From Isurus oxyrinchus (Eukaryota), in assembly GCA_026770705.1 (NCBI GenBank), contig JANJGN010000021.1, forward strand, positions 90,272,001 through 90,336,000: a DNA stretch of 64,000 nucleotides. The letters are read 5' to 3'. Under the pieces are notes generated by a model that worked only from the letters and a program-made list of their open reading frames with translations, made no database searches and was not told where the DNA came from. Shown piece after piece: positions 23,561 through 64,000 of this stretch. Positions within the stretch are counted from its first letter, which is position 1, and each line of letters opens with the position of its first letter. The translations under genes were made by a program, and so were the position numbers.

Positions 23561-26500
23561 ATGATGTTAAGTAAAGGAGAAGTTTGATAACACCACATTT
23601 CAGCTACTGAAGTATTTTCCGCCCCACCAACCAAAATCCACTCTCCCTCCATCACCTCATCGAGCACGGAGGATGTACATATTTAGAAAATGAAGTCCTA
23701 AGCTCGCCATTTTCCTTCATAGCACCCCTTCCAATTCTGCCTCCACTACCAACCAGAAGGAGAACGACATGGACGAATCTCCACTGCTAAGACTCCCTGC
23801 AATGTACAGTCGGCGAGCATATGTATCAAGTTAGGAACCTGGTACTCAAAGAATACTTTCACGCATGGACTGCATAGTTCAAGAAGCTCAGAAGTAAATT
23901 CACCAGCGGAATTAGGGCGAAAGGCTATGCATTTGGGCCTTGCCAGCGACATTCACAGCCTGAGAGATAAATGCCTAGGTTGGGCACTGCTGCTACGCGG
24001 CTGTCATGATATAAATTGTAATAAAATTAGCAGTGTACGCATGCAGCTGCAATGGAACTCGATTCCTGAGAGGAAAATGTAGTTTTTCATATACATTGTC
24101 AGGACCAAAGACAACAAGATGGAAAGGAAACAGGCTCGATAAATGAGTATCAAATGTTGGGAGCTAATTCATAAAACGGGATCTCAAAGTCGGTAACTTA
24201 AGCATTGTTAACTAGTCTGCGAACTAATTACAATAAGGACAAATACACGACAAAAGGACATCAGCTGCCTAATAGAGCATGGTGATAACACTTGCATGGT
24301 TTCATGGTTCATTGAAACTGGAACCAGAATAGAGTATCGCTCTGATGGTCAGGCAGGCCGTACTTTAACATAATAGTGGTAAAGCTCCTGGAGAAAAGAC
24401 AAATAGTCTGTTGGAAGGATTGAAACGAGCAAATGTGGTTAGTTTTCAGCCAAAAACAATAACAATAACGTGATGAGGGGAGAGGCCAAGACGGAAATAG
24501 TGATATCGATAACATAGATAAAGGAAATGCTCAAATAAAAAATGATAGTCAGAGCAGATGTATCAATAACTGTTAATTAAATTGTGTGTCATGGTAACGA
24601 CAGGGGGAAGGAGAGACTAGAGTTGCAAGCTCAAATAAATGCCTATTTTAGAGTCACACACAAAACACGAGTACAGTTAATTTGAGGTACAACGGCAGAT
24701 TATTAAACAAAGAATTTTGTCTTTATACCACGCGTTTAAAAACTAAATATCTCGATTGCCGTCACAGGAGCATTCTGAAGCAAAAATTATTGTTTAGCTA
24801 AATAAAGGGTACGAAGGGCAGATGACGAAAAATTGAGCAGAGAGTCAGGCTTTAATGCCCATTTCAGAAATGATTGACCAATGAGCATTGGTATGCCTGC
24901 TATAACTTTCTTCATAAGTGAAACTGCTAATACCAGAAATTATTCCAGTACACAGATAACACTTTGCATCAACTCGAAACGTTAACTCTGTATCTCTCTC
25001 CAAAGATGTGGTCAGGCCTGCTGAGTTTGTCCAGCATTTTTTCTTTTCGTTTCAGATTTCCAGGATCCGCAGTATTTTGCCTTTGTCATTCCAGTACACC
25101 TTCCTTGCAGGGATTCAAAAACAACAATTACAACTGCAACATAGTGGTGCTGTCCAATTGCGAACCTATTTATATTAATGAGAATATTTTGTTGGGTCAT
25201 GGTTGCTTGGTTCGAACAACTGGGGGCACTGTTTTGTTACACTTAACTTCATGGAGTGTGAAGCATGGAGTGACTATCAAGAGTGTATCGCAGTAGGCTT
25301 AACTGTTGCAACAAATATCACTTGAGGCATGGTTAGATTTGGGTAGTTTTATGGAAGTGAAAATAACAATTTTATTGATGGCATTGACATGAAGTCGGGA
25401 GATTAGCAAGGCTATTAAGAGTGGCGTGGAAATGATCAATTTGGACATTTCAGTTGCTTTCAGCAAAATCAAAAACAACCCTAATGTGCATACTTCAATG
25501 TCATCGTTGTTGGGAAGTGCAGAGTAGTTCAGAACATAAACGTACTAGCCGAGGTTTATTTAAATAGGCGCAATTTGACTGATAACTGAATGTTGTAATT
25601 ATAAAGTTTTTCAAAATGATAAGAAAATTGACGGAGTGGGAAGATTGCATATTGATCATGATAGTATTAGACTAGTGCTCATAGAGGGCACATCAATGAT
25701 TCAAAAATCAATTGAGACCTTTTGTCAGAAAAGTGAAATACCAATGGAACTAAACTATATTCTGAGGTGACAGCATGCCAATGGCTGTTTGCAATGGAAT
25801 GCAATAATTGCATTATTCAGACATTAAACAGGTTTGCAGCTAGAATATTGCTCTCTCAGCCGGAAATCTCTTATCCAATTAAGCTTGAAAGGAAAGGTGT
25901 AAAAATATTTTAAAGCAGTGTTTTTGTTTGATTATCCAATATATTTCCTGGTTAAAGCAATAGCTAAGACTATTATGAAATTATTCATGTGACATTTAAT
26001 TGTGAAAAACATCGAGATGTACAGCACGAAATGAGACTATTTGGCGTGCGTGATTCTTGAAAGAACTGTCCAATTTAATCCCACAAAACGTCTTGCACAG
26101 AATTATTCAAAACTCTTTTACGGAAGAGCAGAACAATAATTATAAGGCATTCCATTACTTATTACATTCAATTCCCATGTTTACCGAGTAAGAATGCAAT
26201 GGTCTATCTTTGCCTCGTTCATTGCCTGGCACCTGCAAAGTCATTATACAGCCCCCTATCCGTATATATGTGCATGCCCTTAACATAGCATCAATTAATG
26301 AACCCAGCTTCTAATGTTGTTTGAATTCTCATGGATTACTACACACTTAACAGCATTAAATGCAATTGGAAAAGTGTCAACAGGCTGCTCATGACTTCCT
26401 GAATTTCGCAACTATACTGATTATTATGTAGTATGGTGCCATTTCTTTCCTCACCCAAAAGCTTCGATATTGTACTCCGATGTCAAAATCCGATCATTAT

Positions 26501-28630
26501 TGGGGAACAGGAAAAAAGCTACCACATTGGCAGGCCACAACACTGTACACTTCTCTCCACGTAGAAAATAAATAACAAAAACAAAATCTTCCACACTTCC
26601 AATTCCTGAACAAATAAATTTCCAAGAGTTTACAATGTTTTTTTTTTCTGCTCTAAATAAATATGATAAGTAGCAGAAGACCAATGATATCTGAAAGTCA
26701 ACATTCACACAACATATATGGCAGAACACTTTCTATTATTTAATCAAAAATGTCAGTCATGTTAGACAGATATAACTTACTGGTAACAAATCGACATCCT
26801 ATTCAATTATGTCTTGTTCGCTATCATCACATGATCTATAATTTAATTTTCTGCACTGATAATGCTTCCTATTAGTTTTTCAGGAACTGACAATAGAATA
26901 AGTGACCCGTAGTTCGAAGTTTGTTTCCTCACTTAATTTTTGAACAGGGTGTAATATGTGAAGTCATACAATGCACCAATGTCCAGTAATGTTGGTCAAG
27001 ACTTCTGTTGTCTCCCTTCATGCCTGCCTTAGCAACCAAGGGCTCATTGCATAACGATGGTGCCATTTGTCAAAGTCCTGCAATTCCAAATTGTTTTGCA
27101 CCGCTTTTCTGTTTGTTCTGATACATATACATATTCCAAGTCCTTTACATGGACGTTAAACTCACCTTATTCTCTGACGCAGATATAAAGATGTTTTACA
27201 AACCTTATTATGCTACTAACGTCCTCACGACGATGAGAATGTGCCCCTCACCCGACCCAACAGTAAAATAACTATTATTTCACTTTAAATAAGAAAATCG
27301 GGCTCTGGTACAGGGGAGCAGGAATAATGCAAATGCCTGTCGAAACTCGGCCGGCCTTCAATAAGACGAGACTGATTCTTGAACTCAGATCCAGCTCCTG
27401 ACCACTGCCAATATCACTTGATTCCCTGAGAGACAAAAGACCTGCCCACCTCAACCTTAATGCTTTCAATCGTAAAGCATCCTTAACTTCTTTTGTTAGA
27501 AAATTCGGGAAAAAAAACAACTCGTTGTGTGAAGACATTTCACCTCATCTCAGTCTGCAACTATCATTGCCTTATTTCTGGGAGTGCGCCCGCGTGGTCT
27601 AGCTTCTCTCGCCAAGGGAAACATGATCATAGCGATGAATTTTAGCACCACACCACAAACCCAATGTACCACTGCCGAATTACATGAATACTGGGAGCAC
27701 GTCAACTAAAACTTGTGGCCAGCCCTCAGGGTGAGTAAGGTCTTGCGGGGCACAGGGCAAGTACCAAACCAGCTACCCAGTTCTTTCCCAACTGCTCCCC
27801 TGGGAGGGTGAAGTCGTGGGTTGTCTGATTTTGCTCGGTCCTCCCCAGTTGAACATATTATTGCAGCTTGGCGAAAACACGACATTATGCAGCAATTCAA
27901 CAAGCCTAAGGGTGTAAGAGCTCGTCGAAGCCTCGCCCGCCCACCATTTTATGAGGGACGTCTCAGGGTGAGCGAAAAGTCAGCAGGCAAGCTGACTTTT
28001 CTTCACAAAAGCCTTGCCCCGCCGACTACAAATATGGGCAGGAGACAGTTGTTCATTCCACGTACCCAACCCCCGACCTTTATTTCAGGCATCTGGAGGT
28101 GCTTTGTGACATTGAGGCATGTTATGAAGCAGCCATGACATTGGATCAGCAACGGTAATGCTGCACGTTAGTACCTACACAAAATATTTTCTTGGGCTTG
28201 ATTTATTGATACACCGACGAATAAGTTTGGCAGAGAATTAACTTCCATCTCTAGTTATGTAATTGATTCATGCCGATAATTAACCCTATTTTTGCTTAGT
28301 AATCCCTTTAGAAATATAAGAGAAAGTTTATCCATTTGCAGTGGCAATATTTAAATTTGTAACTCTTGGCAATAGTAATATTTTTAAAAGCATGTCCGTG
28401 TGACCCTGTAGCATTCATTAATCCCCTCGTATAACGCCTTACTCATATTTAATGATAGCATCCAATATTAGACGTGACTACACCCAGACAATAAAATCAT
28501 CATAGCAAACAAATTTATGTACAAGTTTTGCAGATCAGGCTAGCGCAAGTTTAGGATCATGTTGAGCTATGAAGATATCTTCAATTGACACAACAACAGG
28601 AATTCTCGGATCACGATTGACCTCTTCTAG

Positions 28631-28666
28631 AAATGTTAAAAACGACAGATATAAAAGAAAAAGTTG
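28631..28666 (+). CDS. Unit exon A, 36 nt, phase 1-1, (E)MLKTTDIKEKV
   Basis: gacctcttctAG|...GTTG|GTatac; paralogs at 42975-43008 (34 nt), 52294-52329 and 61792-61827. Confidence 0.5.
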
Positions 28667-29143
28667 GTATACCTCAAAAATTTGTTTTTTCTACAGCTTT
28701 TCCTTTTGTTTTCTTTTAACCCTTTTTTCCTCTCTGTCTCCCACTGGGTAGGATTTAGAGTTTCCTGGCATATCAAAGAGAGGGTTTTAAAAATATTGTT
28801 GAGAAATAATAATAACCCCAATAGCAACTTTTCATTCATTCATCGGTAAGAGTGTCAACAAGAAGCAGGTCATTTGTTTCCCATGCCTAATTCCACAAAA
28901 GTTGCCTTTTTGAACCGCCGCTTTCCATGCGAAGTAGATGCCTACTCACTGCTACCAGTAGGTGCACCACAGGAAGAACGACAAGATGTACCTAACCTAG
29001 AATTTTACTTATGTGACATACTTAATGCGGTAAACTTTCTCACATTCAATTTGAAGGTGAGGAAAGCAAAGTTAGGCACTGAGCCACTTTATGATATATT
29101 ACGGTAAATGGCAGAAAACTTGGTCAGTATGTTTATATTTTAA

Positions 29144-29385
29144 AACAAAAGCAGAATTAACTAGAAAAACTCAGCAGGTCTGGCAGCATCGGCGGAGAAG
29201 AAAAGAGTTGACGTTTCGAGTCCTCATGACCCTTTGACAGAACTGTTCTGTCGAAGGGTCATGAGGACTCAAAACGTCAACTCTTTTCTTCTCCGCCGAT
29301 GCTGCCAGACCTGCTGAGTTTTTCCAGGTAATTCTGTTTTTGTTTTGGATTTCCAGCATCTGCAGTTTTTTTGTTTTTATCTCTG
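29144..29385. mobile_element. 242-bp palindromic non-autonomous derivative of the Penelope-like terminus, present only in unit 1
   Basis: Target-site duplication TGTTTATATTTTAA (29130-29143 and 29386-29399); empty site in units 2-4; sequence matches the 11515-12903 termini. Confidence 0.9.
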
Positions 29386-29761
29386 TGTTTATATTTTAAG
29401 GTTGTTTTAAGAGGGCGTCCATCTTTCCTCAAGTTATATCTAATTATGTTTTGTGTAGGAAAAAACATACTTCTGATAGAGTTTCAGCTGCAAATGACTG
29501 CCCAGCCATTTCCAACGAGTATGATTAAAATCAATGGACGATATACTGTAAATTTCCTACTCTTCACAGCCAAATTCACCAATCGTAGTTTCAGTGTCGC
29601 CGGAATTCACAGAGGGGTCCAGGCAGCGTATATCTTCCCATCGAAAATCTGAATTTCAAACACATTACGGCACAGGTGCGCACGTGGGGTAATTCTCTGG
29701 TTGTCAACGTGCAAAAGTGATCAACATCTGAAAGTTCAAAGTTGAACATGTTCCCTTACAG

Positions 29762-29788
29762 AAACGGACCTGCATATGAAAGATACGC
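29762..29788 (+). pseudogene. Unit 1 exon B, 27 nt, (E)TDLHMKDT, donor mutated GT to AT
   Basis: ttcccttacAG|...ACGC|ATaaga, versus GTaaga in units 2-4. Confidence 0.6.
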
Positions 29789-30812
29789 ATAAGACATTTT
29801 CCATTGGGTTAAGCTCATGCATGTTGTTTTTTTGCCCAAAATATATCGTCCACACTAACAATATACCATGCCACAAAAGCAATTAATGGTTTTAGGAATG
29901 GCAGATTATCGATGCAGTCATAATAAATAACTAAACATGTCCAAGAAATGCTAAGTATTATTTTTCACTTAGATACCACTTCAGTGTTGACGTGGATGAA
30001 ATACCTAGCAAAGTAAACCTAATGGAGAAAACTGCATTTAGCACATTGAACTTTAGTCGTATGAGCACGTGACATGATTTCTGGCGAACCTTTGTGTCAA
30101 ACTGTCCACACTTTGTGTTGCAACTTCATTACTTGCACGGCTCGTTTCGCATTCCTGTCCTAACATAGCTCCCCTCACCCCACCCCAACCACCTCCCTCG
30201 CCTCCACATAGAGATTCATGCGCATACACATATGTACCTTCCCATTTTTTCCTTTCTTCCTACAAATTCTGATTCAAAAACAGGCAAAAAACTGATACTT
30301 ACCTTGCTTTGCAGCACAAAATGGCGAAAGAAAATCGCCAAACCATCCCTCACGCCATCATGGTTGCGCCCATTGAAGTCAAAAGATGAACATAATCGTG
30401 AAACATAGCATTCGGGAGTACTGTTAAAGAATTCTGTAATCCTTGGATTCATCTGCCAGGAAAATATTAGTGCCAACCAATACCTAAATCGCAGATCGTC
30501 ACTCCATTCCTTCACCAATCCGATGATCATATTAACAGCACTATCTGCAGCAAATTGTTTAAATATCTGTAACTCAAGGAAGCACATCCCCAAAGATGAT
30601 TTTTTGTGAAGGTTTCCTTTGTTTTACATATGCAAAAGTAGCACTTCATATCAATTGTAATATGTTATGCTGTTGCAAATGAGAGCCGTTAACCTGCCAG
30701 TCTCTACTGCGGTGGAGTGGCCTCATGCATTTCTGAATCCATCTCAGGTTCCTGAGCATAGACTCCAGCAGTTAGGACACTTCTGAAAAAAAATCATTCA
30801 TTTCGATCTCAG

Positions 30813-30850
30813 TTTGTTTGGAATAATCAAAACATGCACTTAGATGACAG
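30813..30850 (+). CDS. Unit exon C candidate, 38 nt, phase 0-2, FVWNNQNMHLDD
   Basis: tttcgatctcAG|...ACAG|GTaggc; same length and open frame at 44935-44972 (donor lost), 54235-54272 and 63665-63702. Confidence 0.4.
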
Positions 30851-31206
30851 GTAGGCAGCTTTTAAATGCAGGAACAGTCTTTGAATATATTCGAATCACA
30901 TTGTTTCACCTACTTTTAATTTCCTTATTTGATCAGTGTTTTTAATTTCTCAAATTTCATTAATGTTAAACATCTTACTAACATTTTGCGGTGGCGCCTT
31001 CATCTATACATCATTGTTTTTCTTTCTGAATGTTCATCACTGCCTGGTTCATAAGTAACTGCCAGGTAAATACAAAGCAACTCATATTCATGTCCACAAG
31101 CAAAAATGTAAAAAAGCTCCAATAAAAAAAATCTAAATATATCTAAACTGGGAACATCAGATTGAAGTTCAGCCTTTGTTACTAAAAAGAATGGCTACAT
31201 TTTCAG

Positions 31207-31242
31207 AAATGGAAACACTGAAGAAACGCCTTGATGAAAATG
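31207..31242 (+). CDS. Unit 1 exon D, 36 nt, phase 1-1, (E)METLKKRLDEN
   Basis: ctacattttcAG|...AATG|GTtagc; synonymous differences versus units 2 and 3. Confidence 0.75.
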
Positions 31243-32278
31243 GTTAGCGAAATATTAAATTATCTACTGTTGTCTGCGATTCACATGCAGTAAAATTGTT
31301 GTTCATGCAAATCAATTTCATGGTTTCTGGAAACGGTGAGCATGGGGGATAAGTGGGGGCTGCGGGGGAGTGAGGTGGCCTAATTGTCACATATTTCAGG
31401 GCTGGTGGAGGGCGTGGGGGAAGAGTTGGAGCATGACACCCCGCCCCAATCAACGCTTGCTTGCTGCTTGTGCTTCCTCCCTAGCCCTCACCGTTAGGAC
31501 TCCCAACCTATTTTCCCCAAAATCCTCTGGCCTCACCTCCACTCCCCTTTGTGAGACTATGCACAATTAGATGCTTAAGCTCCTGGCTGTGAAGCTGTTT
31601 GGCTCACACAACCACGGGTCGGGAATTCCATCCCTCTATCCCCCACAACACGCACAACCCCAGCCCTCCGTGCGTTGGATGTAAGTTCCTTCTCCTGGGA
31701 ATTAACTCTCTTTGGACAGTTGATTGTCTGTCGAGGAGCCAATATTGGATGATTTGCGTTCCTCAATGAATCATCCATGAAGCTTCTGCGGCCAGAATGC
31801 TGCCAGCCTTTTAATTGTCATGTAGCCATCGAAGGGTGGCCTGCCCACCAGAATAGGGAGGAATGTCCACCTCAAGTCAATTAGCTTCCACCCGCCTTTA
31901 AATGATTGCATAGCAATTACAAACGCATATGTGGTGTGAACACATCCCATACATTTTCGTGAAGGAATGGTTTGTGGTAATCCACCACAAAGGTAAAATT
32001 CTTGCCCTTTTTTAGCCAACTCCTTGAGGCTCACTCTCATTCCCCTTGATTGCTGTATTTCTGATGTAATTGAACTATTCTCTCTCGCTGCCAAGCTCTT
32101 CAGCAAGCACTGAACAACTTCCTGCTCTATTACATCGTAGGTTGAATTGTTGTTGTTCTTTTTCCAGACAATTATTTTCTCTAAACTTGGCCTTTCTGAA
32201 TAGCACTGCCTCCATGACGTCACTTTGAATCCCACTGTCGCTCATAGGCTCTCTCCCCGACTCTACTATTTGGTGTAG

Positions 32279-32314
32279 AAATAGAAAAGCTAACGAAGCG
32301 AGTAAAAGATACAG
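32279..32314 (+). CDS. Unit 1 exon E, 36 nt, phase 1-1, (E)IEKLTKRVKDT
   Basis: ctatttggtgtAG|...ACAG|GTaaga. Confidence 0.75.
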
Positions 32315-32789
32315 GTAAGACACTTAACACATTGTGCATTCAAACATGAAATCTATATATTTATTATTCATTAGCAAAATGTTGCTTTGTGTTTCAGTCA
32401 ACATAATAAGTGTCATCTAGAGCAATGTGAAATATTTCCCTACCTAGGTTTATCAGCCTTAATGATATGTTCCCACTCTCTGTGAAAAATGAGAGTGCTG
32501 AGTACTTCCAAAGAATGTAGGCGACTGATAATAGAACAATTGACGACTATCAGGCCCATCGTGTCCATGCCTGTTATTGATGGAGTAATTCAACCAATCT
32601 ATCTTTTCTACTCAGCTGATTCGGCATAGCCCTGCAGCTTTATGACGCTCAGCTGCCCCTCTATATTTTTTCCTCTCAAACCATTGACTCTTTCCATTTT
32701 GCCACCATGTTTAGCCGTTAATTCCCGTCCATAAACACTCGCTGTGTAAAATATAAAAACAGTCATTCCTCACAAAAAGTGCTGTGAAC

Positions 32790-33600
32790 ATACAAAAGCT
32801 TGGGAGAATTTTGCACAGTGAGGGGGATAGAACTTCAAAATTACATTGACAAGTTGGTGATATGAGTAGTAGACAGGTGGCAGATGGACTTCAATGCAGG
32901 AACGTTTAAAGTGATTTATTTTGTTAGGAGAAACATGGAAAGACAACATAAAAAGAAGTGTTCAAATCTAGAGGGGGTGGGGGAGCAAAGGGTTCTGTGT
33001 GTAAATTTATATACGTTATTAAAGGAGGCAGGACAGTTTGGGAATGTTATTAGTAAAGCATACAGCATACGTGGCCGTCATTACTTAGGTCATAGAGTAC
33101 AAGAGCAAGTGCTTAAAGTTGATTTTTTGAGACAATATTTTAGCATCAGCTACAGTATATCCCCGAAGCTATTGGCGCTAAGCTTTCGGGATGATGTGAA
33201 GGCATTGGAGAGGGTGCAGAAAAAGACTTATGAATATAGTCCCAGGGATAAGGAACTTAAGTAATGAAAATAGACTGGAGAGTTTAAGTGTAGTCTCCTT
33301 AGATAAAACAAAGGTTGAGAGGAGATGTGATAGATTTATTCACAATTATGACGGGTCTGAACAGAGCAATTAGCCAGAGGTATTCTCACTCATAAAAGGA
33401 TGGATAACACGAGGACATTGATTTAAGAGTATACAAATCTTTATCTTCATTCTCACCTGCCATTTGCCTGCTCGTTCTGTTTGTCAATGCATGTTTCAGG
33501 CGATTCGTATCAAAATTATTGTTTGCCACACCTCCACGTTTCGTATTATATGCAAATATAAAAATTGCACATTGCGTTCCAAGGCTCAAGTGGTTTACAT
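32790..33600. mobile_element. Old CR1 fragments (plus about 32790-33370, then minus about 33385-33600), duplicated with each unit
   Basis: Peptides WQMDFNAGTFKVIYF and DVKALERVQK (plus), FAYNTKRGGVAN (minus); paralogs at about 46930-47740 and 56230-57040. Confidence 0.75.
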
Positions 33601-36409
33601 ATAGTAAGTATAAACACAAATAAATAAGTAAACAAAAAAGCAAGCAACCAAAAGAATGAATGAACCAATCAAAGCATATTTAAGAAATGCATCATTAAAT
33701 TCTTAAATACCAAAAAAAATTAACAAGCAATAATTAAATACCATTTAGCATGCCTCGCTCTTTATGGTCCTTAAAGTCATTTTGTTTTTTTAATATCCGA
33801 TTTGTCTCCTGCCATCCTCAACTATGAGACTCAGTTTTGCTCTCTAACCTGTTCTGTACCTCTTTGCCGAAACCATGGCTTAAATCCATATATATATAGC
33901 TCCAGGGCATTCCCTTTAGCATATTTCCCTGTTAATACAAAAAAATTGAATTAAGTGCTTCCAAAGAGTCAAACATATTGTGCCTTTTACAAGACTTTAC
34001 TGGATATGCTAAATTAAATTGCACATATCGAAGAACCTATTGATGTTTCACTGATCATTGTTAATAATCCCTTCCGCAACAATGATGTTAAACTAACTAG
34101 TCGAACTTCTTTTCTAACGAAGTGGGACACATTTGCCACTGTTATATTCACATGCACCTTCCCCTTATCTAGGGGAGGCTGCAGAAATTATGGCAGGCCC
34201 CTCCACGATCTCGATCCATGCTTCCTTCAGCAAACTGCCACGCGAGACATCCGGATGAGGTGACGTATCTAGCTTAAGTATGGCAGCCTTTTCCACTACC
34301 TCCACCCTCAATTTTCACTTTATCCATTGCTTCCACTGTTTCGGTTCCTATAGGCAACTTTTTTGACAGATTTGTGTTTATTAGTAAACACCAATACAAG
34401 TTAGTTTTGAAGAACGTCGTTCTATTCAACAGACCGAACATTACCTTCATTGTAGCTAAAAGGGGTATCACCGCCCAATACTTTTGGCTGACTATTTACA
34501 TGTGGGGGGAACAAATCGCGATCGCATATAGGTTGAATGCAATTCCATCCTCTGGTTCTCTCCCAGTTGCTCATAATCATTACGGTGAACTAAAAGATTC
34601 AACACTGAAATCAAAATGAATGCTTGCACAGGCACAGAGATTAGAAGTAAAAATAAGAATAAAAACAGCAATAAAAATCATTATGAATAATATGTATAAT
34701 AATAGGAATATGCTAGCCACCTGCTGGCCTTTGTCTATTTGCATATCGCACAAAGAAAAGGGCCAGAATATTTAAGTGGTTTTGGGGAGGGTGAGAGTGC
34801 ATGAAGAAGCCGGCCAAAGAACTAACCAGGAGAAAGGTTTGTCTGCAATCAGTGAGAGATTGACAAACTCTTTTTCTCGTCAAAGAAATATAATATAGTT
34901 TGGGAGGACGGAGATCATCAATTGAGGATAGAGGGGTTTCGATTACTTAGATAAGGGGACTGAAGAGCGAAATACTCCTCCAGTCACAGAAACAGTGTTG
35001 CAAGGCACAGCTACGTTGAAGCCACCCCTTCATATCATTGTCAACTTTGTCGAGCCGTGTGAAATATCTGCAACCGCACTCATTTCCAAACCGGCAACAC
35101 TGATGAAAGGGGTAATCTTACAATGCGGAACCTGTGCATCTTTGCCTCAGTGGAAATTCTCTGCAACAGTGCTATCAGTTGACACTTCTCGCCAACATAC
35201 TTGACATCGATGTCCAGGGCGGAATTTTATCCTCCATGATCCGAAGCATATTATGTAGCTTGAAGGCGTCGGGCATGGTTAACTGCATTATCACGCCTGT
35301 TTTCCATACAAAAAACATCAGAAAGGCGGGTCAAAAAGTCGGGAACCATCCTGCGTAATCTAAGTATTAACTGCAAAGGCAATTCGATTATATAGCACCC
35401 ATTCACTGCAATAATACACTGAGATTGCAATAATGCGAATTCAAGACAAGACCTATGCTAGATTAAGAATCTCTTTTTTAAAGGTATGCTTGCTTGGTAG
35501 GGCTTTAAAACTCTAGCTGAGAGCGGAGTCTCTGTTTTGCAGTTAAAATTCTATTGACAGCCTGGGCGGCTCATTTGAGTGCACAGGGGAGCCATTTGGG
35601 TATTTCTCATGAATAGTGCGCACCTTTAATTAAGAGGGATAGTTTGTTGGAATTTTGTCCAGTCCATTACCCAGGGTTGACGGGTGAAATAGTGTCTTAA
35701 GCAGATGGGCATTGTTGTCTCATTTGGAGGCACAGACTCCAATGAGAATTCAAGATGGATTAGAAGGAGGAGGAGTGGAAGAGGGCAAAACAGGGATGCT
35801 CAGTTTGCTGTGGTTTCTCAGAAAGGGGGGCGGATCCATTCCCAGAGTGTAAGGATGAACCCAGAAACCCTTAGCAGTGGTGCTGACGAACTTATGCCAC
35901 CCAAAGAACACACACTCACGGGTCTAGGTACCTGCAACTGACATCATGAGGCCTTTGAGCCTTTTGTCGCATTGGAACCAAGTTCTCCTCATGACACCAA
36001 CACATCGTTGGACACCTCCTGCCACGTAGCATGAGTCTGTTAGGCTTCCACTTCCTCTTTCTTTTCCTCTTTCTCCCACTGTTCTGCATGAACAACAAGT
36101 AATGCCTGTCGTGTACTGCAACAACCGGGCACCAAGGGAGACCTCACTGCATCTGGAGGCAGATTCACTCATTCTTGAATGCTTCTTCCTTCGCTCTGAT
36201 GACGCAGATATCTATGCTTGCCAATAGTAATAAGTGCACAGTTCCTCAGTACCAAAAGGAAGGAGATTTGCAGAAATTAAAATTATTGCACATTTGATGT
36301 TTGAAATTGTTATTAGGGACTATTGAAGTCAGGTATTTATTGACCGCCTCAGACACAATGAGCCGAATGGCTTTGTTCTGTGATGTAAGAGTCTATGATT
36401 TTATTTGCT

Positions 36410-45327: not shown

Positions 45328-45363
45328 ATATAGATACACTAAAGAAACGCCTTGATGAAAAGC
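45328..45363 (+). CDS. Unit 2 exon D, 36 nt, (x)IDTLKKRLDEK
   Basis: ccctacattttcAG|...AAGC|GTtagt. Confidence 0.7.
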
Positions 45364-46405: not shown

Positions 46406-46441
46406 ACATGGAAAAGCTGAGGAAGCAAGTCAAAGACACAG
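46406..46441 (+). CDS. Unit 2 exon E, 36 nt, (x)MEKLRKQVKDT
   Basis: ttatttggtgtAG|...ACAG|GTatgg. Confidence 0.7.
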
Positions 46442-52293: not shown

Positions 52294-52329
52294 AAATGTT
52301 AATGACGATAGATATAAAAGGAACATTTG
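52294..52329 (+). CDS. Unit 3 exon A, 36 nt, (E)MLMTIDIKGTF
   Basis: gacctcttctAG|...TTTG|GTattc. Confidence 0.5.
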
Positions 52330-53198: not shown

Positions 53199-53225
53199 AA
53201 ATGAATCTGCATATGAAAGATATGG
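53199..53225 (+). CDS. Unit 3 exon B, 27 nt, (E)MNLHMKDM
   Basis: ctctcttacAG|...ATGG|GTaaga. Confidence 0.68.
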
Positions 53226-54625
53226 GTAAGACATTCTTCATTGCATTAAGTTCATGCATTTGGTTTTTCTTTGTCCCAAAATTCAATATCCACACTAACA
53301 ATATAACTCGCCACAAGATCAATTAATGGTCTTTAGGAATGGGAAACTATCGATGCAGTCATAATACTTAACATGGCAGAAAGATGCCTAGTATTATTTT
53401 TCACTCAGGTACCATTTCAGTGTTGACGTTGATAAAGTACATAGCAAAGTAACCTTAATGGAGGAAGCTGCATTTATCACGTTGAAGTTTGGACGTATGA
53501 GCAGGTGACGTAATTTCTGGTGAGCCTTCGCGTCAACCTGTCCATTCTTTCTGTTGCTATTTCATTAGTTGCATTGCTTGTTTCACGTTCCTGTCCTAAC
53601 ATAAAACCCCACCCCCACCACAACCACCTCGCTCGCCTCCACATACACATTCATGCACACATGCACATGTACCTTCCCATTTGTGCCAATCTTCCTACAG
53701 CCTTCTTTGATTCAAAAACGGCAAAAACAGCATAAAATGGCGAAATATAATCGCCAAACCATTCCTTACACGAGCATTGTTTCGCCGTTTGTCTTCAAAA
53801 CATGAACGCAATTGTGAAACATAGCAATCAGGAATACTGTTAAAGAAGTCTGTACCATCCTTGTATTCAAGTGCCAGGCATTTAATATTAGCCGACAGAT
53901 ACCTACATTGCAGACCTTTGCTCCATCCCTTCGTCAATTCGATGAAAATATTAATAGCACTATCTGCAGCAAATTGATTTAAAAAAATCTGTAACGCAAG
54001 CAAACACATCCAAAAACGCGAATTTTTTGTGAAGATTTGCTTTGCTTTACATATGCTAAAGTGGCGCTTCATATGAACTGTAATATGTTACGCTGTTGCT
54101 GATGAGAGCCGTTAACCTGCCCGTCCCTACTGCTGTGAATCGGCATCATGAATTTCTGAATCCATCTCGGTTTCCAGGCATAGCCTTCAGCAGTTAGGAA
54201 GCTTTTGTAAAAAAATCATTCCTTTCCATCTCAGTTTGTTTGGAAGAATCCAAACATGCACTTTAATGACAGGTATATGCTTTTAAATGAATCAATAGTC
54301 TTTGAATATATTCGAATCACTTTGTTTGACCTACCTTAATTCCCATATTTGATCAGTGTTTTTACTTTTTCACATATCAATCATGTTAAATATGTTACTA
54401 ACATTTTACGGCCGCACCTTGATCTATACATCATTGTTTTTTTTTCTGAATGTTCACAACTGCCTGGTTCATAAGTAACTGCCAGTTAAATACAAAGCAA
54501 TTCGTATTCATGTCCAAAAGCAAATATATAATAAAAGCTGCAATGAGACATTTCAAAACATATCTAACATAGAAACATCGGATTAAAATTCAGCCTTCGT
54601 TCAAAAAAAAACCCTACATTTTCAG

Positions 54626-54661
54626 AAATAGAAACACTGAAGAAACGCCTAGACGAAAAGG
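54626..54661 (+). CDS. Unit 3 exon D, 36 nt, (E)IETLKKRLDEK
   Basis: ccctacattttcAG|...AAGG|GTtagc. Confidence 0.72.
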
Positions 54662-55692
54662 GTTAGCAAAATATTAAATTATTTCTTGTTATATTATTCA
54701 TATGCAGTAAATTTGTTGTTCGCACAACTCAATTTCATGGTTTCCTGAGCCGGTGATCGTGGGGGATAGGTGGCAGCTCTACAGTAGGGAGGCGAGGTGC
54801 CCTAATTGTCACATTTGTCAGGCCTGGTGCAGCGCGGTGGGGAGGAGATGGAGCTTGACACCCCGCCCCAATCAACCCTTGCTTCCTGCTTGTGCTTCCT
54901 CCCCAGCACTCACCGTAAAGACTCCGAACACACTTTCCCCTCAATCCTCTGGTCTCACCTCCACTCCCCTTTGTGAGACTATGAACAATTGCCTGCTGTT
55001 AAACTCCCGGCTGTGAACTTGTTTGGCCCGCACATCCAAGACGCGAGAATTCCATCCCTTTATCCCCCACACCGCATGCCACCCAAGCCCTCCGAGTGCT
55101 GGACGTTAGTTCCTCTCCTGGCAATTAACTTTCTTTGGACCGTTAAATGGCTGTCGAGCGCCCAACTATGGATGCTTTGCGTTCCTCACTGAAACTGCTG
55201 TGAGGCTTCTGCGGCCAAAGTTTTGCTGGCCATTTAATTGTCAGATAGCCATCGAGGGGGGGCCTGCACAGCAGAATAGGGAGGAATGTCCAGCTCAAGT
55301 CAATTAACTGTCCACCCGCCTTTAAATGGTTGCATAGAAATTGCAAATGAATATGCTGTGTGAACTCACGCCATACATTTTCGCGGAGGAATTGTTTGTG
55401 GTAATCCACTACAAATGTAAGATTTTCGTCTTGTTTTTTAAGTCACCTCCTTGATGCTCACTCACATTCCTCTTTTTTGTATATTTGAACAAATTGAACT
55501 ATTCTCTATTCTTGTGAAACTCCTCAAACAAGCACTTCTTGTTCTGTTGCATCACATGTTGAATTGTTGTTCATTTTCCAGAAAATTATTTGCTGTAAAC
55601 TTTCTCTTTCTGAATAGTGCTCTCTCCATGATGATACTTTGAATCCCGCTGTCCCTCATAGGCTCTTTCTTCGACTTTTCTATTTGGTGTAG

Positions 55693-55728
55693 AAATAGAA
55701 ATGCTGAGGAAGCGTGTAAAAGACACAG
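55693..55728 (+). CDS. Unit 3 exon E, 36 nt, (E)IEMLRKRVKDT
   Basis: ttctatttggtgtAG|...ACAG|GTaagg. Confidence 0.75.
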
Positions 55729-58700
55729 GTAAGGCACTTAACACTTTCAGCATAGAAACATGACATTTATATATTTGTTCTTCATTAGTATAATGTTCCG
55801 TGAGTTCCAATCAACATAATAAGTGTTACAAAGAGCCATTTAAAATATTTTCCTAACAGATTTATCAGCCTTAAGGATATGTTCATGTCACCAATCCCCA
55901 CTCTCTGCGAAAAATGAGAGTGCTGAGAACGTCCAAAAAATGTAGGTGACATATAAAAGAACTATTTTCGACACAACAGACCATCAGGCCCATCGAGTCC
56001 AGGCCAGTTATCTCTGGAGCAATTCAGTCATTCAATCTTTTCTACTCACCTGCTTCATCATCGCCCTGCAGGTTTATTTCCCTCAGGTGCCCCTCCATAG
56101 TTTTTTCTTGTTTTTCAAACCATTGACTGTTTCCACTTCGCCACCCTGCTTAGCAGTGAATTCCAGGCAATAAGCACTCGTATGCAAAATATAAAAGCAA
56201 ACGTTCCTCACAAAATTTGGAAGCATTGTGATCGTATAAATGCTTGGAAGAATTTTGTACAGTGAGGGGGATGGGTTAGAACTTCAAAATGACATTGGCA
56301 AGTCGATGACATGAGCGGTAGATTGGTGGAAGACGGACGTCAATGCAGGAAACTTTAAAGTTATTAATTTTGTTAGGAGAAATATAAAATACAACACGAA
56401 ATGAATTGCTCAACTCTAGAGGGGGCACAGGAGCAGTGGGTTCTGTGTGTATATGTATATACGTTATTAAAGTAGGCAGGAGAGGTCGGGAATGTTATCA
56501 GTAAAGCATAAAGTATCGTGGGCTTTATTACTAGGGTCATAGAGTACAAAAGCAAGAGTTTAAAGTTGTATTTACATGAGCCACTATTTCGACCCCAGCT
56601 ACAGCGCTACGCAGAGCTATTGGCGCTATACTTTCGGGAGGATGTGAATGCATTGGATGGGGTGCAGGATAAACAATTATGAATATCGTCCCAGGGATTA
56701 GGAACTTAAGTTATGAAGATAGACTGGCGACGTTAAGACTAGTCTCCTTAGAGAAACCAAGTCTGAGAGGAGATTTGATGCATATATTCACATTTATGAG
56801 GGGCCTGAAAAGAGCAATTAGACTGAGGTATTCTCACTCATGAAAGGATGGACAACTCGAGGGCATTGATTTAAGAGTATAAAAAATTTTATCTTCATTC
56901 TCACCTGCCACTTGCCTGCTCGTTTTGTTTTTGTATCGATGTTTCAGGCGATTCGTATCAACATTACTGTTTGCCACATCTTCAAGTTTCGTATCATGGG
57001 CAAATGTAGAAATTGCACATTGAATTCCAAGGCCCAAGACGTTTATATATAGTAACTATAAGCATAAATAAATAAGTAAACGAAAATAAAGCAAGCAAAC
57101 GAAAGAATGAATGAACGAATAAATCAAAATGAAAGAAAATCATCATTAAATACTAAATATCAAAAATAAATTAACAATTTAATAATTAAATAACATTCAG
57201 CATGCCTCGCTGGTTATCATGTAAATCATATTGATTTAATCCATATTAATAGCCTCCAGTGCAGTCCATTCAGCAAATTTTCCTGTTAGTTCAACAAAAT
57301 GGAATTAACTGCTTCCAAAAGTGAAACATAGTATACCTTTTACTATTCTTTACTGGATATGCTTAAATAACTTGCATGTATCCAAGAACCTATTGATGTT
57401 TCACTGATTATTGCTAATAAACCCTTACGCAACAGGGAAGTTAAACTAACTAGTCTTACTTCCTTTCGAAAAAAAGGGGGAACACATTTGCCACTGTTGT
57501 ATTCAGATGAACCTTCTCCTTATCCAGGGAAGGTTACAGAAACTATGGCAAGCCCTTCTGCCATCTCCATCCACTGTCACATCACACCCTGGCATACAAG
57601 ACATCCAGATGAGGTGACGTATCTGGCTTAAGTATGGCAGCCTTTTCCACTACCTCCTCCCTGCATTTTCACTGTATTCATTGCTTCCACTGTTTCGGTT
57701 TCTATAGGAATCTTTTAGGATAGCTTCGTGTTTATTAGTAAACACCAATAAAAGTTATCTATGAAGAACGTCATTCTATTCTATATACCGGACATTACCT
57801 GCTTTGCAGATAAAAGGGGCAACTCCGCCCTGTACTTTTGGCTGATTATTTACCTGTGATCACATATAGGTTGAACGCAATTCCATTCTTTGGTTCTGTC
57901 CTAGTTGCTCATAAGCATTACGATAAAATAAAAGATCACACACCAAAATCAAAATGGATGCTTGCACAGGCAGAGAGATTCCAAGTAATACTAAAAATAA
58001 AAAAGAGCAATTAAAAATAATAATAATAGGAATAATATACATAATAATAGGAATACTTTCGCCACCTGATGGCCGTTTGCCTATTTGCTTATTGCACAAA
58101 GGAAAAGGTCAGAATATTTACATGGTTTTAGAGAAGGAGCGAGTACATAAAGAAGCCAGCAAAATAAGTAACTGGGAGAAAGATCTGTCTGTAATTGGCG
58201 AGTGATCAACAAGCTGATTTTTCTCGTCTAAGAAAAGTAATACAGTTTGGGAGGACGGAGGTCAGTAAATGAGAATAGAGGAGTTTTGACATCTCGGGTA
58301 AGGGATCTGAAGAGCGACATACTCCAACAATCACAGAAGCAGTGTTTCAAGGCACAGCTTCTTGGAAGCCGCCCCTTCATTTCATTGTTGAACTTTTTCA
58401 AACCGTGTGAAACATGTGCAATCACATTCATTTCCAAACCGGCAGCACTGATGAAAGGGGTGATCTTACAATTTGGAAATTGTGCATCTTTGCCTCAGTG
58501 GAATTTATCAGTCGACATTTACTCACCAACAAACTTGACATCGATGTCCATGGCAGAATTTTATCTTCCATGATCGGGAGCATATTATACAGTGTGAAGG
58601 CTTCGGACATGGTTAACAGCATTATCACCCTCATTTTCCATACAGAAAAACAACAGGAGGGCGGGTCAAAAAGTCGAGAACAATGTCGCGTAATCTAATT

Positions 58701-61700
58701 ATTGATTTAAAAGTCAATACGACTAATAAAGTACCAATTCACTGCAATAATACTCTCAAAGGGCAATAATACCAATCCAATCTATGCCAGATTAAGAATC
58801 GTTCTTTTTAAAGGCAAGCTTGCTTGGTAGGGCTAGAAAACTGTAGCTGAGAGCGGAGTCTCAGTTTTACAGTTAAAAGTCTATTGACATCCAGGGCGGC
58901 TCTTTTGAGTTGACAGGGGAGCCATTTGGCTATTCCCCATGAGGAGAGCGCACCTTTACTTAAGAGGGGTCTTTTGTTGGAATATTGCCCGGACCATTAG
59001 GCAGGGCTGACGGGTGAAAAAGTGTCATAGGCAGATGGGTATTTTTGTATCATTTGGAGGCACTACCTCCAATGAGGAGTCAAGATAGACTAGAAAGAGG
59101 ACGAGGAGAAGAGGGGAAAACAGGGAGGCTCAGTTTGCTGTGGTTCCTCAGGATGTGGGCGGATCATTTCCTAGGGGGTCAGGATGAACGCAGAAACCCT
59201 TAGCGGTGGTGCAGACGAACCTATGCCACCCAAAGAACATAGAGGCACAGATCTAGCTACTTGCAACGGACTGCATGGTGCCTTTGAACCATTTGTCACA
59301 TTTGGACCAAATTCTCCTCACCACATCAACATTGGCGGGTACCTGCTCCCTCTTCGCATGAGACTGCTGTGTTTCCTCTTTCTCTTTCTGTTCCTCTTTC
59401 TCGCAGTGCTCTGCACGAACAACAGGTAATGCGTATCATATGCTGCATCAACAGAGCTCCAAGGGGGACCTCACTGCATCTGGAGGTAGACTCAGTTGTT
59501 CTTGAAAGCTTCACCCTTTGCTCCGATGATGCAGATATACATGCTTGTCAATAGTAAGATGTAAACAGTTCCTCTGTACCAAAAGGTAGGAGACTTGCAG
59601 AAATTTAAATTCTTCCATCTTTGAAGTTTGAAACTGTTGTTAGAGATTGTTGAAGTCAGGTATTTGTTGACCATCTCAGACACGAGCCGAATGGCTTCGT
59701 TCTCTGGTGTAAGCATCTATGATTTTATTCGCTAAAATATAAGATAAAATCAGAAAATGCTCGAAAATACTTAACAGGACTGGTAGCGTCTGTGGAGAGA
59801 AAAAACAGAGTTAACGTTTTGAGTCCGCATGACTTCTTCATAGCTGAAGGCAGGTAGAAATGTAACGTGTTTTATACTGTGGAAGAGACGGGATGGACTA
59901 GGTAGATCAAAATAAAAGGCCAAAGATAGGTGGGAGCTGAAAAAGATTTGACAAAGACACAAGGTAAATTGAAGGTAATCAAATAACCTTGGTGACTAAA
60001 GCATGTACGAAAATTTGCATAAAGATCAGGTAGTAGAAGCTTTTAATAGCAAAAGAAGGGTTAGTGTTCCCTGAAATTAAAACATAAGAACAAATTACAG
60101 GCTAGCCTTGTGGGTTGCGTGTTGGGAAAAATAAACACTTACAGGTAAACAATTAAATTGCCTTACATGAGTGGACTGGAAGATTTGCAAACCTTTGCTA
60201 AGTTAGTAGATGTGTTCGTTTTATCATCTGGTGGGTCACTTGACTCAGCCAAAAACAATTGGGACCGATTTTCTGTTTGTTCTGATAGATCTAATACCTA
60301 TTCCCTGTCCTTTAAACTGATGTTATCCTCGCCATCCTCTCTGACGCAAATAAAAAGACACTCTGCGAATCTCATTATGCTACACACATCCTCACCATGA
60401 TGCAAATATGCCCTTTGCCAGCCCCAGCATAACGCTTCCTTTCATTTCACTGTAAATAAGGACATCAGGTCATGGTGAAATGGAACAGGAATAGTCTATA
60501 TGCCCGCCGAAATTCGGCCGCCATTCAATAACACGAGGTTGATCCTTCAACTCAGACGCACATCTTGCCCACTGCTCATATCCTTTAATTCCCTGAGAGA
60601 CAAAAGACCTGCCCACCTCAAACTTAATTTATTCAATGTTAAAGTATCCTCAACTTCTTGTGGTAGAAAATTCAATTTAAAAAATCTTCTTTTTGAGGGA
60701 AGACAATTCATCTCATCTCAGTCCGAAACTACACTATCCTTATACTGGGAATGTGCCCGAGTTGTCTGGCTTCTCTCACCAAGGTTAGGAACGTTCATAG
60801 CGATGAAGTTTTGCACCAAGCACAAACCCAACGTACCCCAGCCAACTTTCTTGAATTCAGTGGGCACGTCAACTAATACGGGTGCCCAGCCCTCAGGGCC
60901 AGTAACATCGTGCAGGGGCACAGGGCAAGTACCAAACAAGCTATCTGGTTCTTGTCTGCCTTTTCCCTGGGACGGTGAAGTCGTTGGTTGGCTGTTTTTG
61001 ATTGATCATCCCCAGCTGCACTTACGATTGCAGCTGTGTGAAGCCAGAGCATTATGCAGATTAACAATTCTAAGGGCGTAAGGGCTGGCCGACCCTCACC
61101 TGCCCACCATATCGTGGGGGACAGATCAGGGTGAGAGGAAAGTCAGCAGGCTAGTAATCCGTCTTATTTTTCTTGACCAAACCCTTGCATCGTTGTCATC
61201 AAATGTGGGGAGGCGACAGCTGTTCTTTCCAAGCCCCCAATCCCAAACCTTTATTATAGACAGCTGGAAGTGCTTTGTGACATGGAGGAATGTTATGCTG
61301 CCGCCATGTCATTGGATCTGCAGCAGTAATACAGCACTTTAGGACCTGCGCAAAATATTTTTTTGTCCTTGCTCTTTTGTTACACCTAAGAATAAGGTCG
61401 GCAGAAAATTGACTTCCATCTTTAATTACTTAATTGATTCATGGCAACTATTAACCGTCTTTTTGCTTAGTCATACCACTAGAAATATAACAGAAATTCT
61501 ATCCAATTGCATTGGTAATATTTAAATTTGTAATTCTTGGCAATAGTAATATTTTTTGAAAACATGTCATTGCGACCCTGTAACACTCATTAATCCTCTC
61601 ATATAACGCCTTGTTCATATTTACTGATGGCATCCTAAAACACCCAGACACTAAAATAATCATAGCAAACAAATTTATGTAGAAAATTCGCAGATCATTT

Positions 61701-61791
61701 CCAACGCTAGTTAGAGGTCATGTTGTGCTATGAAGATATCTTAAATTCACACTACGAAAGGTATTCTCGGATCTCGCTTGACCTCTTCTAG

Positions 61792-61827
61792 AAATGTTAA
61801 TGACGTTAGATATAAAACAAAAACTCG
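61792..61827 (+). CDS. Unit 4 exon A, 36 nt, (E)MLMTLDIKQKL
   Basis: gacctcttctAG|...CTCG|GTattc. Confidence 0.5.
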
Positions 61828-62687
61828 GTATTCCTCAAAATCTGTTTTTTTTTTGTACAGCTCTTTCTTTTGATTTCTTTTAACCCAAATTTTTCCTCTC
61901 TGTCTCCCAATGCGTAGTATTTAGAGTAACCTGGCATATCAGTGAGACAGTGTTAAAAATGTTGAGAAATAATAATAACACCCATAGTAACTTATCATCC
62001 ATTCATCGTTTGGAGCGTCAACAACAAGGAGGGCATTTGTTTCCCATGCCTAATTCCACTGAAGTCGCCTTCTTGAACCGTTGCCAACCATGTGTAATAC
62101 ATGCCTGCTCACCACTTCCAGTAGGTGCACCAAAGGATATTTAAGCCAGAGACAGTGGAAGAACGACGAGATATCTTTAATTTAGAATTTTATTTATGTA
62201 GCATACTTAATGTGGTAAACCTCCCCAAGTTCAGTTTGAAGATGAGGAAAGCAAAGTTAGGCACTCAGCCACTTAATGATACATTATGGTAAATGGCAGA
62301 AAAATTCGTCAGAGTGCTTATATTTTAAGGTTACTTTAAGAGTGCGTTATTTGTTCTGCAATTATATCTAATTAGGTTTTGTGTAGGAAAAAGGTACTCC
62401 CGATAGAGATTCAGCTGCAAATGACTGCCCAGCCTCTTCCAACACATATGATTAAAATCAATGGACAAAATAGTGTAAATTTCCTGCTCTTCAAAGCCAA
62501 ATTCTCCAACTGTAGTTTCAGTGTCGCAGGAATTCACAGAGGGGTCCAGCAGCCTACATCTTCCCATCGGAAATTTGAATTTCAAACACATTATGGCACA
62601 GCTGCGCGCACGGGGTAATGCTCTGCTTGTCAACATGAAAAAGCGAACAACAAATGAAAGTTCAAAGTTGAACATGTTCTCTTACAG

Positions 62688-62714
62688 AAATGGACCTGCA
62701 TATGAAAGATACGG
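62688..62714 (+). CDS. Unit 4 exon B, 27 nt, (E)MDLHMKDT
   Basis: ttctcttacAG|...ACGG|GTaaga. Confidence 0.68.
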
Positions 62715-64000
62715 GTAAGACATTTTCTATTGGGTTAAGTTCATGCATGTTGTTTTTTTTTGGCCCAAAATTCAATGTCCACACTAACTATAAAGCTCAC
62801 TACAAAAGCAATTAATGGTTTTTAGGAATGGGAAACTATCGATGCAGTCATAATAATTAACTTAACTTGCTGAAAAATGCCTAGCATTGTTTTTCACTCA
62901 GGTACCATTTCAGTGTTGACGTTGATAAAGTACCTAGCAAAGTAACCTTAATGGAGAAAACTGCATTTAGCACGTTGAAGGTTAGACGTATGAGCAGCTG
63001 ATATAATTGCTCATTTCACGTTCCTGTCCTAACATAAAACCCCACGCCCTCCACAACCACCCCCCTCGCCTCCACATACACATTCGTGCACACACGCACA
63101 TGTACCTTCCCATTTGTGCCAATCTTCATACAGCCTTCTTTGATTCAAAAATGGCAAAACCAGCACAAAATGGCGAAAGATAATCGCCAAAATGTTACTC
63201 ACGCCACCATTATTTTGCCGTTTGTCTTCAAAAGATGAACACAATCGTGAGACATAGCAATCGGAAATATTGTTAAAGAAGTCTGTACCATTCTTGGATT
63301 CAAGTTCCAGGAATCTAATATTAGCCGAGAGATACATACATTGCAGACCTTTGATCCATTCCTTCACCAATTTAATGATCACATTAATAGCACTGTCTGC
63401 AGCAAATTGATAAAAATATCTGTAATGCAAGAAAGCGCATACAAAAACGTGAATTTTTGTGAAGATTTGCTTTGCTTTACTTATGCTAAAGTAGCGCTTC
63501 ATATGAATTGGAATATGTTATGCTGTTGCTGATGAGAGCCGTTAACGTGCCCGTCCCTACTGCTGTGAATCGGCATCATGAATTTCTGAATCCATCTCGG
63601 TTTCCCGGCATAGGCTTCAGCAGAAAGGACGCTTTTGTAAAAAAATTATTACTTTCGATCTCAGTTTGTTTGGAAGAATCCAAACATTCCCTTAATTGAC
63701 AGGTAGGCTGCTTTTAAATGCATTAATATTCTTTGAATATATTTCAATCAGTTTGTTTGACCTACCTTAATTCCCATATTTGATCAGTGTTTTAACTTTT
63801 TCACATATCATTCATGTTAACTATCATACTAACATTTTACGGTGGCGCCTTGATCTATATGTCATTGTTTTTTTTTCTGAATGTTCACAACTGCCTGGTT
63901 CATAAGTAACTGCCAGTTAAATACAAAGCAACTCGTATTCATGTCCAAAAGTAAATATATAAAAAACGCTCCAATAAGACATTTCAAAACATATCTAAAC

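What the first reader, a model, noticed from the sequence alone, without database searches (positions are those of the whole stretch)
26082..64000. 9-14 kb tandem array that multiplies a microexon cassette (about 45 aa per unit)
Seen: four colinear, substantially diverged units starting near 26082, 40407, 50754 and 60265, made mostly of decayed retroelements but each carrying exons A-B-(C)-D-E (unit 4 is cut off after C). In unit 3, A+B+D+E splice in frame to EMLMTIDIKGTFEMNLHMKDMEIETLKKRLDEKEIEMLRKRVKDT and continue in frame into unit 4 (EMLMTLDIKQKLEMDLHMKDT). No start exon or large domain exon was recognised within a unit. Inference: intragenic macro-repeats, where about 10 kb of DNA adds about 135 coding nt and copy number would set rod length.
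Basis: partly seen in the sequence, partly recalled or inferred. Interest (0 to 1): 0.75.

Follow-up and report, generated by a model that had tools for sequence, protein, structure and literature searches.

The report
Pruned tandem copies of coiled-coil microexons
An old block of about 10 kb carrying a few tiny exons was copied four times next to the coiled-coil exons of a vertebrate gene; some copies have broken and the rest change about as fast as intron DNA, so this looks like a worn example of a known way genes lengthen.

Summary
The array is real: four colinear units, 82-89% identical. Eight phase-1 microexons of 27 or 36 nt lie at 3494-18565 on the + strand (7 of 18 exon-like segments versus 0 of 11 on the minus strand). 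Chained, they give a heptad pattern if one doubtful segment is left out. 'About 45 aa per unit' holds only for unit 3. Exon B1 lost its donor, A2 is frameshifted, and C is dead in all four units. Array exons diverge at intron rate (31 private changes versus 30.8 expected), with only hints of constraint (P 0.065 and 0.097). A 45-aa unit breaks the heptad register, whereas B+E or B+D (21 aa) would keep it. Best reading: an amplified-and-pruned exon block in which a variable subset of copies may still be spliced. The gene is unidentified: no domain exon was found and the database searches had almost no power. Same kind as the nebulin triplicate, DAZ and chicken BG tails.

The parts
26079..27099 (.). 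Segment X, copy 1 (1 kb leader present only in units 1 and 2)
   Evidence: (26079-29143 vs 40404-43513, 79%), junctions
27100..37603 (.). Repeat core, unit 1
37604..40403 (+). Spacer Z unique to the unit 1/2 boundary, contains a decayed LINE-type reverse transcriptase frame (39014-39553)
   Evidence: RVT_1 clusters, score 0.94; no homology to 19241-26078
40404..50752 (.). Unit 2 (X copy 40404-41414 plus core 41415-50752)
50753..60263 (.). Unit 3 core (9511 nt)
60264..64000 (.). Unit 4 core, cut by the window end; sister of unit 3 (11.5% apart)
3494..3520 (+). Upstream microexon x1, 27 nt, phase 1
3704..3730 (+). Upstream microexon x2, 27 nt
4273..4299 (+). Upstream microexon x3, 27 nt (weaker splice score; below the cut-off)
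5423..5458 (+). Upstream microexon x4, 36 nt
9249..9275 (+). Upstream microexon x5, 27 nt
11093..11119 (+). Doubtful 27-nt segment x6 (weak acceptor; breaks the single heptad register if included)
14680..14715 (+). Upstream microexon x7, 36 nt
15036..15062 (+). Upstream microexon x8, 27 nt
18530..18565 (+). Microexon E0, 36 nt, older paralog of array exon E inside a 1.3-kb homologous segment (17930-19240, 69% identical flanks)
28631..28666 (+). A1, 36 nt, open, weak donor
29762..29788 (+). B1, 27 nt, donor lost (AT)
31033..31065 (+). C1, dead (no acceptor AG, in-frame stop); exon origin not shown
31207..31242 (+). D1, 36 nt, open, weak sites
32279..32314 (+). E1, 36 nt, open, strong donor
42975..43008 (+). 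A2, 34 nt, 2-nt deletion, poor donor: dead
43876..43902 (+). B2, 27 nt, open
45154..45186 (+). C2, dead
45328..45363 (+). D2, 36 nt, open, weak sites
46406..46441 (+). E2, 36 nt, open
52294..52329 (+). A3, 36 nt, open, weak donor
53199..53225 (+). B3, 27 nt, open
54453..54485 (+). C3, dead
54626..54661 (+). D3, 36 nt, open, weak sites
55693..55728 (+). E3, 36 nt, open, strong donor; 33 of 36 nt identical to E0
61792..61827 (+). A4, 36 nt, open, weak donor
62688..62714 (+). B4, 27 nt, open, strong sites
63884..63916 (+). C4, dead

Best explanation
Amplified and pruned. A + strand vertebrate gene encodes a charged helical rod, probably a coiled-coil stalk or tail, from phase-1 exons of 27 and 36 nt; alternating 27+36 nt gives 21 aa, three heptads (exons shown; coil inferred). 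The gene grew first by duplicating single exons (E0 and E share flanks; shown). A block of about 10 kb holding A, B, C, D and E was then copied in tandem: three copies arose close together in time and a fourth later (shown by the distances). Unequal crossing-over is the inferred cause. Because every exon is a symmetric multiple of three, any copy can be skipped without loss of frame, so selection on each copy is weak. C was dead before amplification, and B1 and A2 died after it. A variable subset of the surviving copies, most likely the strong-site B and E copies, is probably still spliced and lengthens the rod under little sequence constraint (inferred; no RNA data). A unit therefore adds somewhere between 0 and 45 aa, not a fixed 45.
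For: Upstream exons: 7 of 18 high-scoring exon-like segments in 1-26078 on + are 27 or 36 nt, versus 0 of 11 on the minus strand and a mean of 0.49 (max 4) in 100 shuffles. Eight of them chained have hydrophobic residues at 15 of 24 a/d positions versus 7 of 57 elsewhere (residue shuffle P 5e-5, exon-order shuffle P 0.008). E0 segment homology: nhmmer E 1.9e-128; E0 versus E3 33 of 36 nt with flanks at 69% (P 0.001). Pruning. Hints of residual constraint: 2 of 14 copies dead versus 4.6 expected (P 0.065); nonsynonymous share 21 of 31 versus 0.77 expected (P 0.097); combined P 0.038 (post hoc). Register: B+E or B+D give 9 of 14 a/d hydrophobic, A+B+D+E gives 12 of 28. Duplication order: U3-U4 11.5%, other pairs 16.6-18.4%; 123 of 162 informative sites group U3 with U4; U1, U2 and U3 are unresolved against the E0 outgroup (22/19/16).
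Against: Total exon divergence is exactly neutral: 31 private changes versus 30.8 expected; 3-way identity 102 of 133 exon columns versus 75% background, and no 60-column window exceeds permutation (55 observed versus 55.05). A and B of unit 3 versus unit 4 differ by 7 nonsynonymous and 2 synonymous changes. Neither constraint test is significant alone, and the exons were first picked because they look intact. The heptad result depends on leaving out the segment at 11093 (P 0.46 with it, 1e-4 without), which I dropped after seeing the periodicity, while keeping x3, which also fails the cut-off. B+E versus A+B+D+E is not significant (Fisher P 0.33) and was picked from 15 subsets. With B1 dead, unit 1 cannot supply B+E. 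E0 versus E1 (30 of 36, P 0.04) and E2 (28 of 36, P 0.16) are weaker than E3. Splice scores come from a simple hand-set matrix.
Confidence: 0.5

Rival explanations
1. Pure fossil. The block was already non-functional, or became so at duplication, and the array is neutral DNA in a long intron or downstream of the gene, or the whole locus is a recent pseudogene. Intact-looking exons survive by chance at 8-9% divergence per lineage.
For: Exon rate equals intron rate. C is dead in 4 of 4 copies. The weak A and D sites and the weakened E acceptor are shared by all copies, so decay began before amplification. Under neutrality 9.4 of 14 copies would still look intact and zero stops has P 0.32. A search able to find a near-identical protein found none.
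Against: Fewer dead copies and fewer amino-acid changes than neutral (combined P 0.038). E donors are strong in 3 of 3 copies and B donors are retained in 3 of 4. E3 is close to E0. One search is uninformative if the species or gene is not annotated.
Confidence: 0.3
2. One reading: each unit constitutively adds A+B+D+E (45 aa) and copy number sets rod length.
For: Unit 3 is fully intact and in frame with A4 and B4; 7 of 7 exon copies in units 3 and 4 are open.
Against: B1 and A2 are dead. 45 aa is 3 mod 7, with a/d occupancy 12 of 28. A donors and D sites score below zero. Units are 11-18% diverged, so not a homogenised, currently expanding array. No excess conservation.
Confidence: 0.1
3. Separate partial paralogs: each unit is a truncated gene copy or carries its own start and end.
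For: Tandem clusters of immune genes are common (BG: PMC4046983, passages). Short start or terminal exons would escape these scans.
Against: No Pfam domain in 48 unit-3 ORFs, no block conserved above chance, no CpG-island-like bin (GC at most 0.454 in the array). All recognised exons are internal phase-1 exons continuing the upstream series.
Confidence: 0.1

Closest known systems
Nebulin triplicate region (NEB TRI)
   Same: An intragenic tandem block of 10 kb carrying several exons, repeated three times, with copy number tied to protein length (PMC9109913, abstract and passages).
   Different: NEB blocks are highly similar, hold eight exons each and vary in copy number. Here units are 11-18% diverged, hold at most 135 coding nt (1.4%), and include dead copies.
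DAZ intragenic amplification and pruning
   Same: A single small exon (exon 7, 24 aa) and a multi-exon block (exons 2-6, about 11-kb steps between the 9, 20 and 31 kb fragments) were amplified inside the gene, described as amplification and pruning (PMC2322974, passages). That the pruned copies are degenerate exons is recalled, not read.
   Different: DAZ is an RNA-binding germ-cell gene with young polymorphic repeats. No RRM is seen here; these are 9-12 aa heptad exons in old copies.
Chicken BG / butyrophilin heptad-exon tails
   Same: A coiled-coil built from many tiny exons whose number varies between genes and alleles, with alternative splicing changing tail length (PMC5938342 and PMC4046983, passages). 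Butyrophilins with variable heptad number are reported across jawed vertebrates, including cartilaginous fishes (PMC12841164, passages).
   Different: BG exons are 21 nt (a few 18 or 24). Here they are 27 and 36 nt, separated by 0.2-11 kb. No Ig-V, transmembrane or B30.2 exon was found in the window.
CD23-type C-type lectin stalks (recalled)
   Same: From memory, the CD23 stalk is made of 21-aa repeats on 63-nt exons, the same length as a 27+36 nt pair here.
   Different: Not verified (search gave listings only, none read). No lectin domain in the window; here the 21 aa are split over two exons.

Membership tests
Intragenic multi-exon tandem duplication (NEB TRI / DAZ kind) | Head-to-tail multi-kb copies that include introns | tested here: met
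Intragenic multi-exon tandem duplication (NEB TRI / DAZ kind) | Frame-compatible exons, same strand and phase as the host gene's other exons | tested here: met
   All 27 or 36 nt, phase 1, + strand; E paralogous to upstream E0
Intragenic multi-exon tandem duplication (NEB TRI / DAZ kind) | One transcript spans the units and includes their exons | not testable with these tools
   No RNA data
Intragenic multi-exon tandem duplication (NEB TRI / DAZ kind) | Repeated exons under purifying selection | tested here: inconclusive
   Neutral total rate; P 0.097 and 0.065 for the two constraint tests
Intragenic multi-exon tandem duplication (NEB TRI / DAZ kind) | Copy-number variation among individuals | not testable with these tools
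   One haplotype only
BG / butyrophilin family | Ig-V (and Ig-C) ectodomain and transmembrane exon upstream; B30.2 downstream in BTN | not testable with these tools
   Gene ends lie outside the window; no such Pfam hit in 168 ORFs scanned
BG / butyrophilin family | Heptad tail encoded by 21-nt exons (BG) | tested here: not met
   Exons are 27 and 36 nt; no 21-nt exon-like segment passed
BG / butyrophilin family | Coiled-coil heptad pattern across small exons | tested here: inconclusive
   P 1e-4 without the 11093 segment, P 0.46 with it
Type II C-type lectin with repeated stalk (CD23-like) | C-terminal lectin domain after the stalk | not testable with these tools
   Outside the window if present; none in the ORFs scanned

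The most novel reading that the evidence does not exclude
A receptor stalk or tail whose length is set by duplications of about 10 kb that each add just one 27+36 nt exon pair (63 nt, 0.7% of the unit, exactly three heptads). Selection acts on heptad register and splice sites, not on amino-acid sequence: D and E are alternative 36-nt partners of B, and copies that would break the register are pruned. Exon skipping would then give a ladder of rod lengths from one gene.
Probability: 0.15. Interest if true: 0.6.

Novelty: new member of a known kind. Interest (0 to 1): 0.3.

Why it matters
As it stands, this is another case of a known route to longer proteins, caught at an old, partly decayed stage. 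It is useful mainly for annotation, since 9-12 aa exons spread over 60 kb are easily missed and my own searches could not see them. If RNA shows register-preserving inclusion (B+E or B+D), it would be a clean natural test of whether selection can maintain coiled-coil phase and length while sequence drifts at nearly neutral rate.

Tried and rejected
Gene identification failed. Profile searches with stacked exon peptides found nothing or one spurious hit. That hit is a 749-aa tandem-repeat protein matched through the intron-derived part of the query, so it was rejected. A power test showed that the predicted protein itself would score at most 7 bits with those profiles, so these negatives mean nothing. 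A narrower profile able to detect a near-identical protein at E below 2, but not one 15% diverged, scored none of 84 candidates.

Pfam: 2 of 51 selected ORFs hit (endonuclease and RT of a LINE at 6311-7820) and 0 of 117 hit. One listed ORF (18674-18883) and most ORFs of units 1, 2 and 4 were not scanned. Rfam: 0 matches. The ESM Atlas gave no hit for the 200-aa ORF in unit 4.

The idea that x4-x5-x7-E0 is an older whole copy of A-B-D-E was not shown: flank homology of x4, x5 and x7 to the array is within noise, and peptide best matches are not colinear for A or D. Homology of C to x5 was likewise not significant. Other AG-GT segments open in units 1-3 (for example 81 nt at 53033) occur on both strands and were treated as background. 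Assembly artefact was rejected because the units differ by 11-18%. (a bacterial promoter scan of 48 nt) was irrelevant and is not used.

Paper searches for a description of this locus type found none: searches returned 0 papers, and one search returned 3 that did not look relevant by title and abstract start. No supplements were read. No eukaryotic genome or read collection was available, so orthologs and sequence beyond the window stayed unchecked.
Full report
Observation. Self-comparison shows four colinear direct copies from 26079 to the window end. The core is 27100-37603, 41415-50752, 50753-60263 and 60264 onward. Units 1 and 2 also share a 1-kb leader, and a 2.8-kb spacer with a LINE-type RT frame lies between them, which explains the 14-kb first spacing. 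Over 3665 four-way columns, units 3 and 4 are 11.5% apart and all other pairs 16.6-18.4%; 123 of 162 informative sites group units 3 and 4. With the upstream E0 segment as outgroup, units 1-3 are unresolved (22/19/16) and have equal private changes (67/67/68). The last 650 columns of unit 2 are 89% identical to those of unit 3, against 84% further upstream. This suggests that the latest crossover lay near 49950 rather than at the nominal unit edge (inference). The window is spliceosomal-intron DNA with GC about 40% and LINE remnants. That it comes from a cartilaginous fish is my recalled impression of the repeats, not a test.

The host gene. A scan for AG-GT segments found a series of phase-1 microexons upstream of the array on the same strand: 3494, 3704, 4273, 5423, 9249, 14680, 15036 and 18530, with a doubtful ninth at 11093. 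In a scan blind to length and phase, 7 of 18 high-scoring segments in 1-26078 were 27 or 36 nt, against 0 of 11 on the minus strand and a mean of 0.49 (maximum 4) in 100 shuffles. They encode proline-free, E/K/R/L-rich peptides. Chained without 11093 they place hydrophobic residues at 15 of 24 a/d positions and 7 of 57 others (residue shuffle P 5e-5, exon-order shuffle P 0.008). With 11093 a single register is not significant (P 0.46), although the best period is then 3.42. I dropped 11093 after seeing this and kept 4273, which also scores weakly, so the coil is likely but not proven. From x4 onward the exons alternate 36 and 27 nt, and each pair is three heptads. E0 (18530) lies in a 1.3-kb segment homologous to the surroundings of array exon E, with flanks 69% identical and the exon 30, 28 and 33 of 36 nt identical to E1, E2 and E3. 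This ties the array to the gene and suggests that E0 has been under selection.

State of the cassette. Of 14 copies of A, B, D and E, 12 have AG, GT and an open frame. B1 has lost its donor and A2 has a 2-nt deletion. C lacks an acceptor and has a stop in 4 of 4 units; its exon origin is not shown. A donors and D sites score poorly in all copies, while B and E score well (simple matrix). The upstream-versus-array score difference in that call is biased because the upstream exons were found by score. So 45 aa is available only from unit 3, and possibly unit 4; units 1 and 2 can give at most 36 and 33 aa.

Selection. Exon identity equals non-exon identity in 6 of 6 pairs. Private changes number 31 against 30.8 expected, and no 60-column window is conserved beyond permutation. 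Resampling real intron columns, the nonsynonymous share is 21 of 31 against 0.77 (P 0.097) and dead copies are 2 of 14 against 4.6 (P 0.065). Combined post hoc, P is 0.038, and ascertainment favours intact exons. The raw pooled pN/pS of 0.11/0.27 overstates constraint because pairs are not independent, E0 is included and transition bias is ignored. The data fit either neutrality or weak constraint.

Register. A+B+D+E is 45 aa, 3 mod 7, and gives 12 of 28 a/d hydrophobic in the upstream register for units 2-4. B+E and B+D are 21 aa and give 9 of 14, the best of 15 subsets, but the contrast is not significant (P 0.33) and unit 1 cannot supply B.

Mechanism. Shown: serial exon duplication, then block duplication, then loss of some copies. 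Inferred: unequal crossing-over as the cause; weak selection per copy because symmetric exons can be skipped; continued splicing of a subset, probably B and E (0.5).

Identity and comparison. The gene could not be named. No domain exon was found in 168 ORFs scanned. Three of the four protein searches had no power, and the fourth could only have found a near-identical protein. The architecture matches known cases: nebulin's three 10-kb blocks of eight exons (PMC9109913, abstract and passages), DAZ's intragenic amplification and pruning (PMC2322974, passages), and BG tails built from many 21-nt heptad exons of variable number (PMC5938342 and PMC4046983, passages). It works like these. Membership of BG or butyrophilins is not shown, and the 21-nt criterion is not met. 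Searches returned no paper on such a locus in cartilaginous fish.

Verdict. A real structure and a new member of a known kind. Interest 0.3.

Noticed in passing
window 17385-17593 and 17740-17948; 15575-15691 and 17267-17383: A perfect 209-nt inverted repeat with a 146-nt spacer, next to a perfect 117-nt direct copy of sequence 1.7 kb upstream. It ends where the E0 flank homology begins. A very young insertion or rearrangement, or an assembly artefact.
   Followed up: partly
window 6311-8900: Decayed + strand LINE with endonuclease and RT remnants (Pfam, below curated cut-offs) in the intron between x4 and x5.
   Followed up: partly
window 11526-12067 and 12421-12929: Two inverted copies (86%) of a short interspersed element; related copies at 29142-29389 (an insertion only in unit 1), 5162, 19412, 24972, 36410, 37335, 50213 and 59734.
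   Followed up: no
window 18566-26078: 7.5 kb between E0 and the array with no convincing exon and no Pfam hit; a short terminal exon here cannot be excluded.
   Followed up: partly
window 53033-53113 and its copies (29595 in unit 1): An 81-nt AG-GT segment, open in phase 1 in units 1-3 with a fair donor, but not an 81-nt open frame in unit 4 and no more conserved than background.
   Followed up: partly
window 22525-23036: A 265-nt two-copy tandem duplication, 76% identical.
   Followed up: no
window 10487-10583: TAGA microsatellite, 24.8 copies.
   Followed up: no
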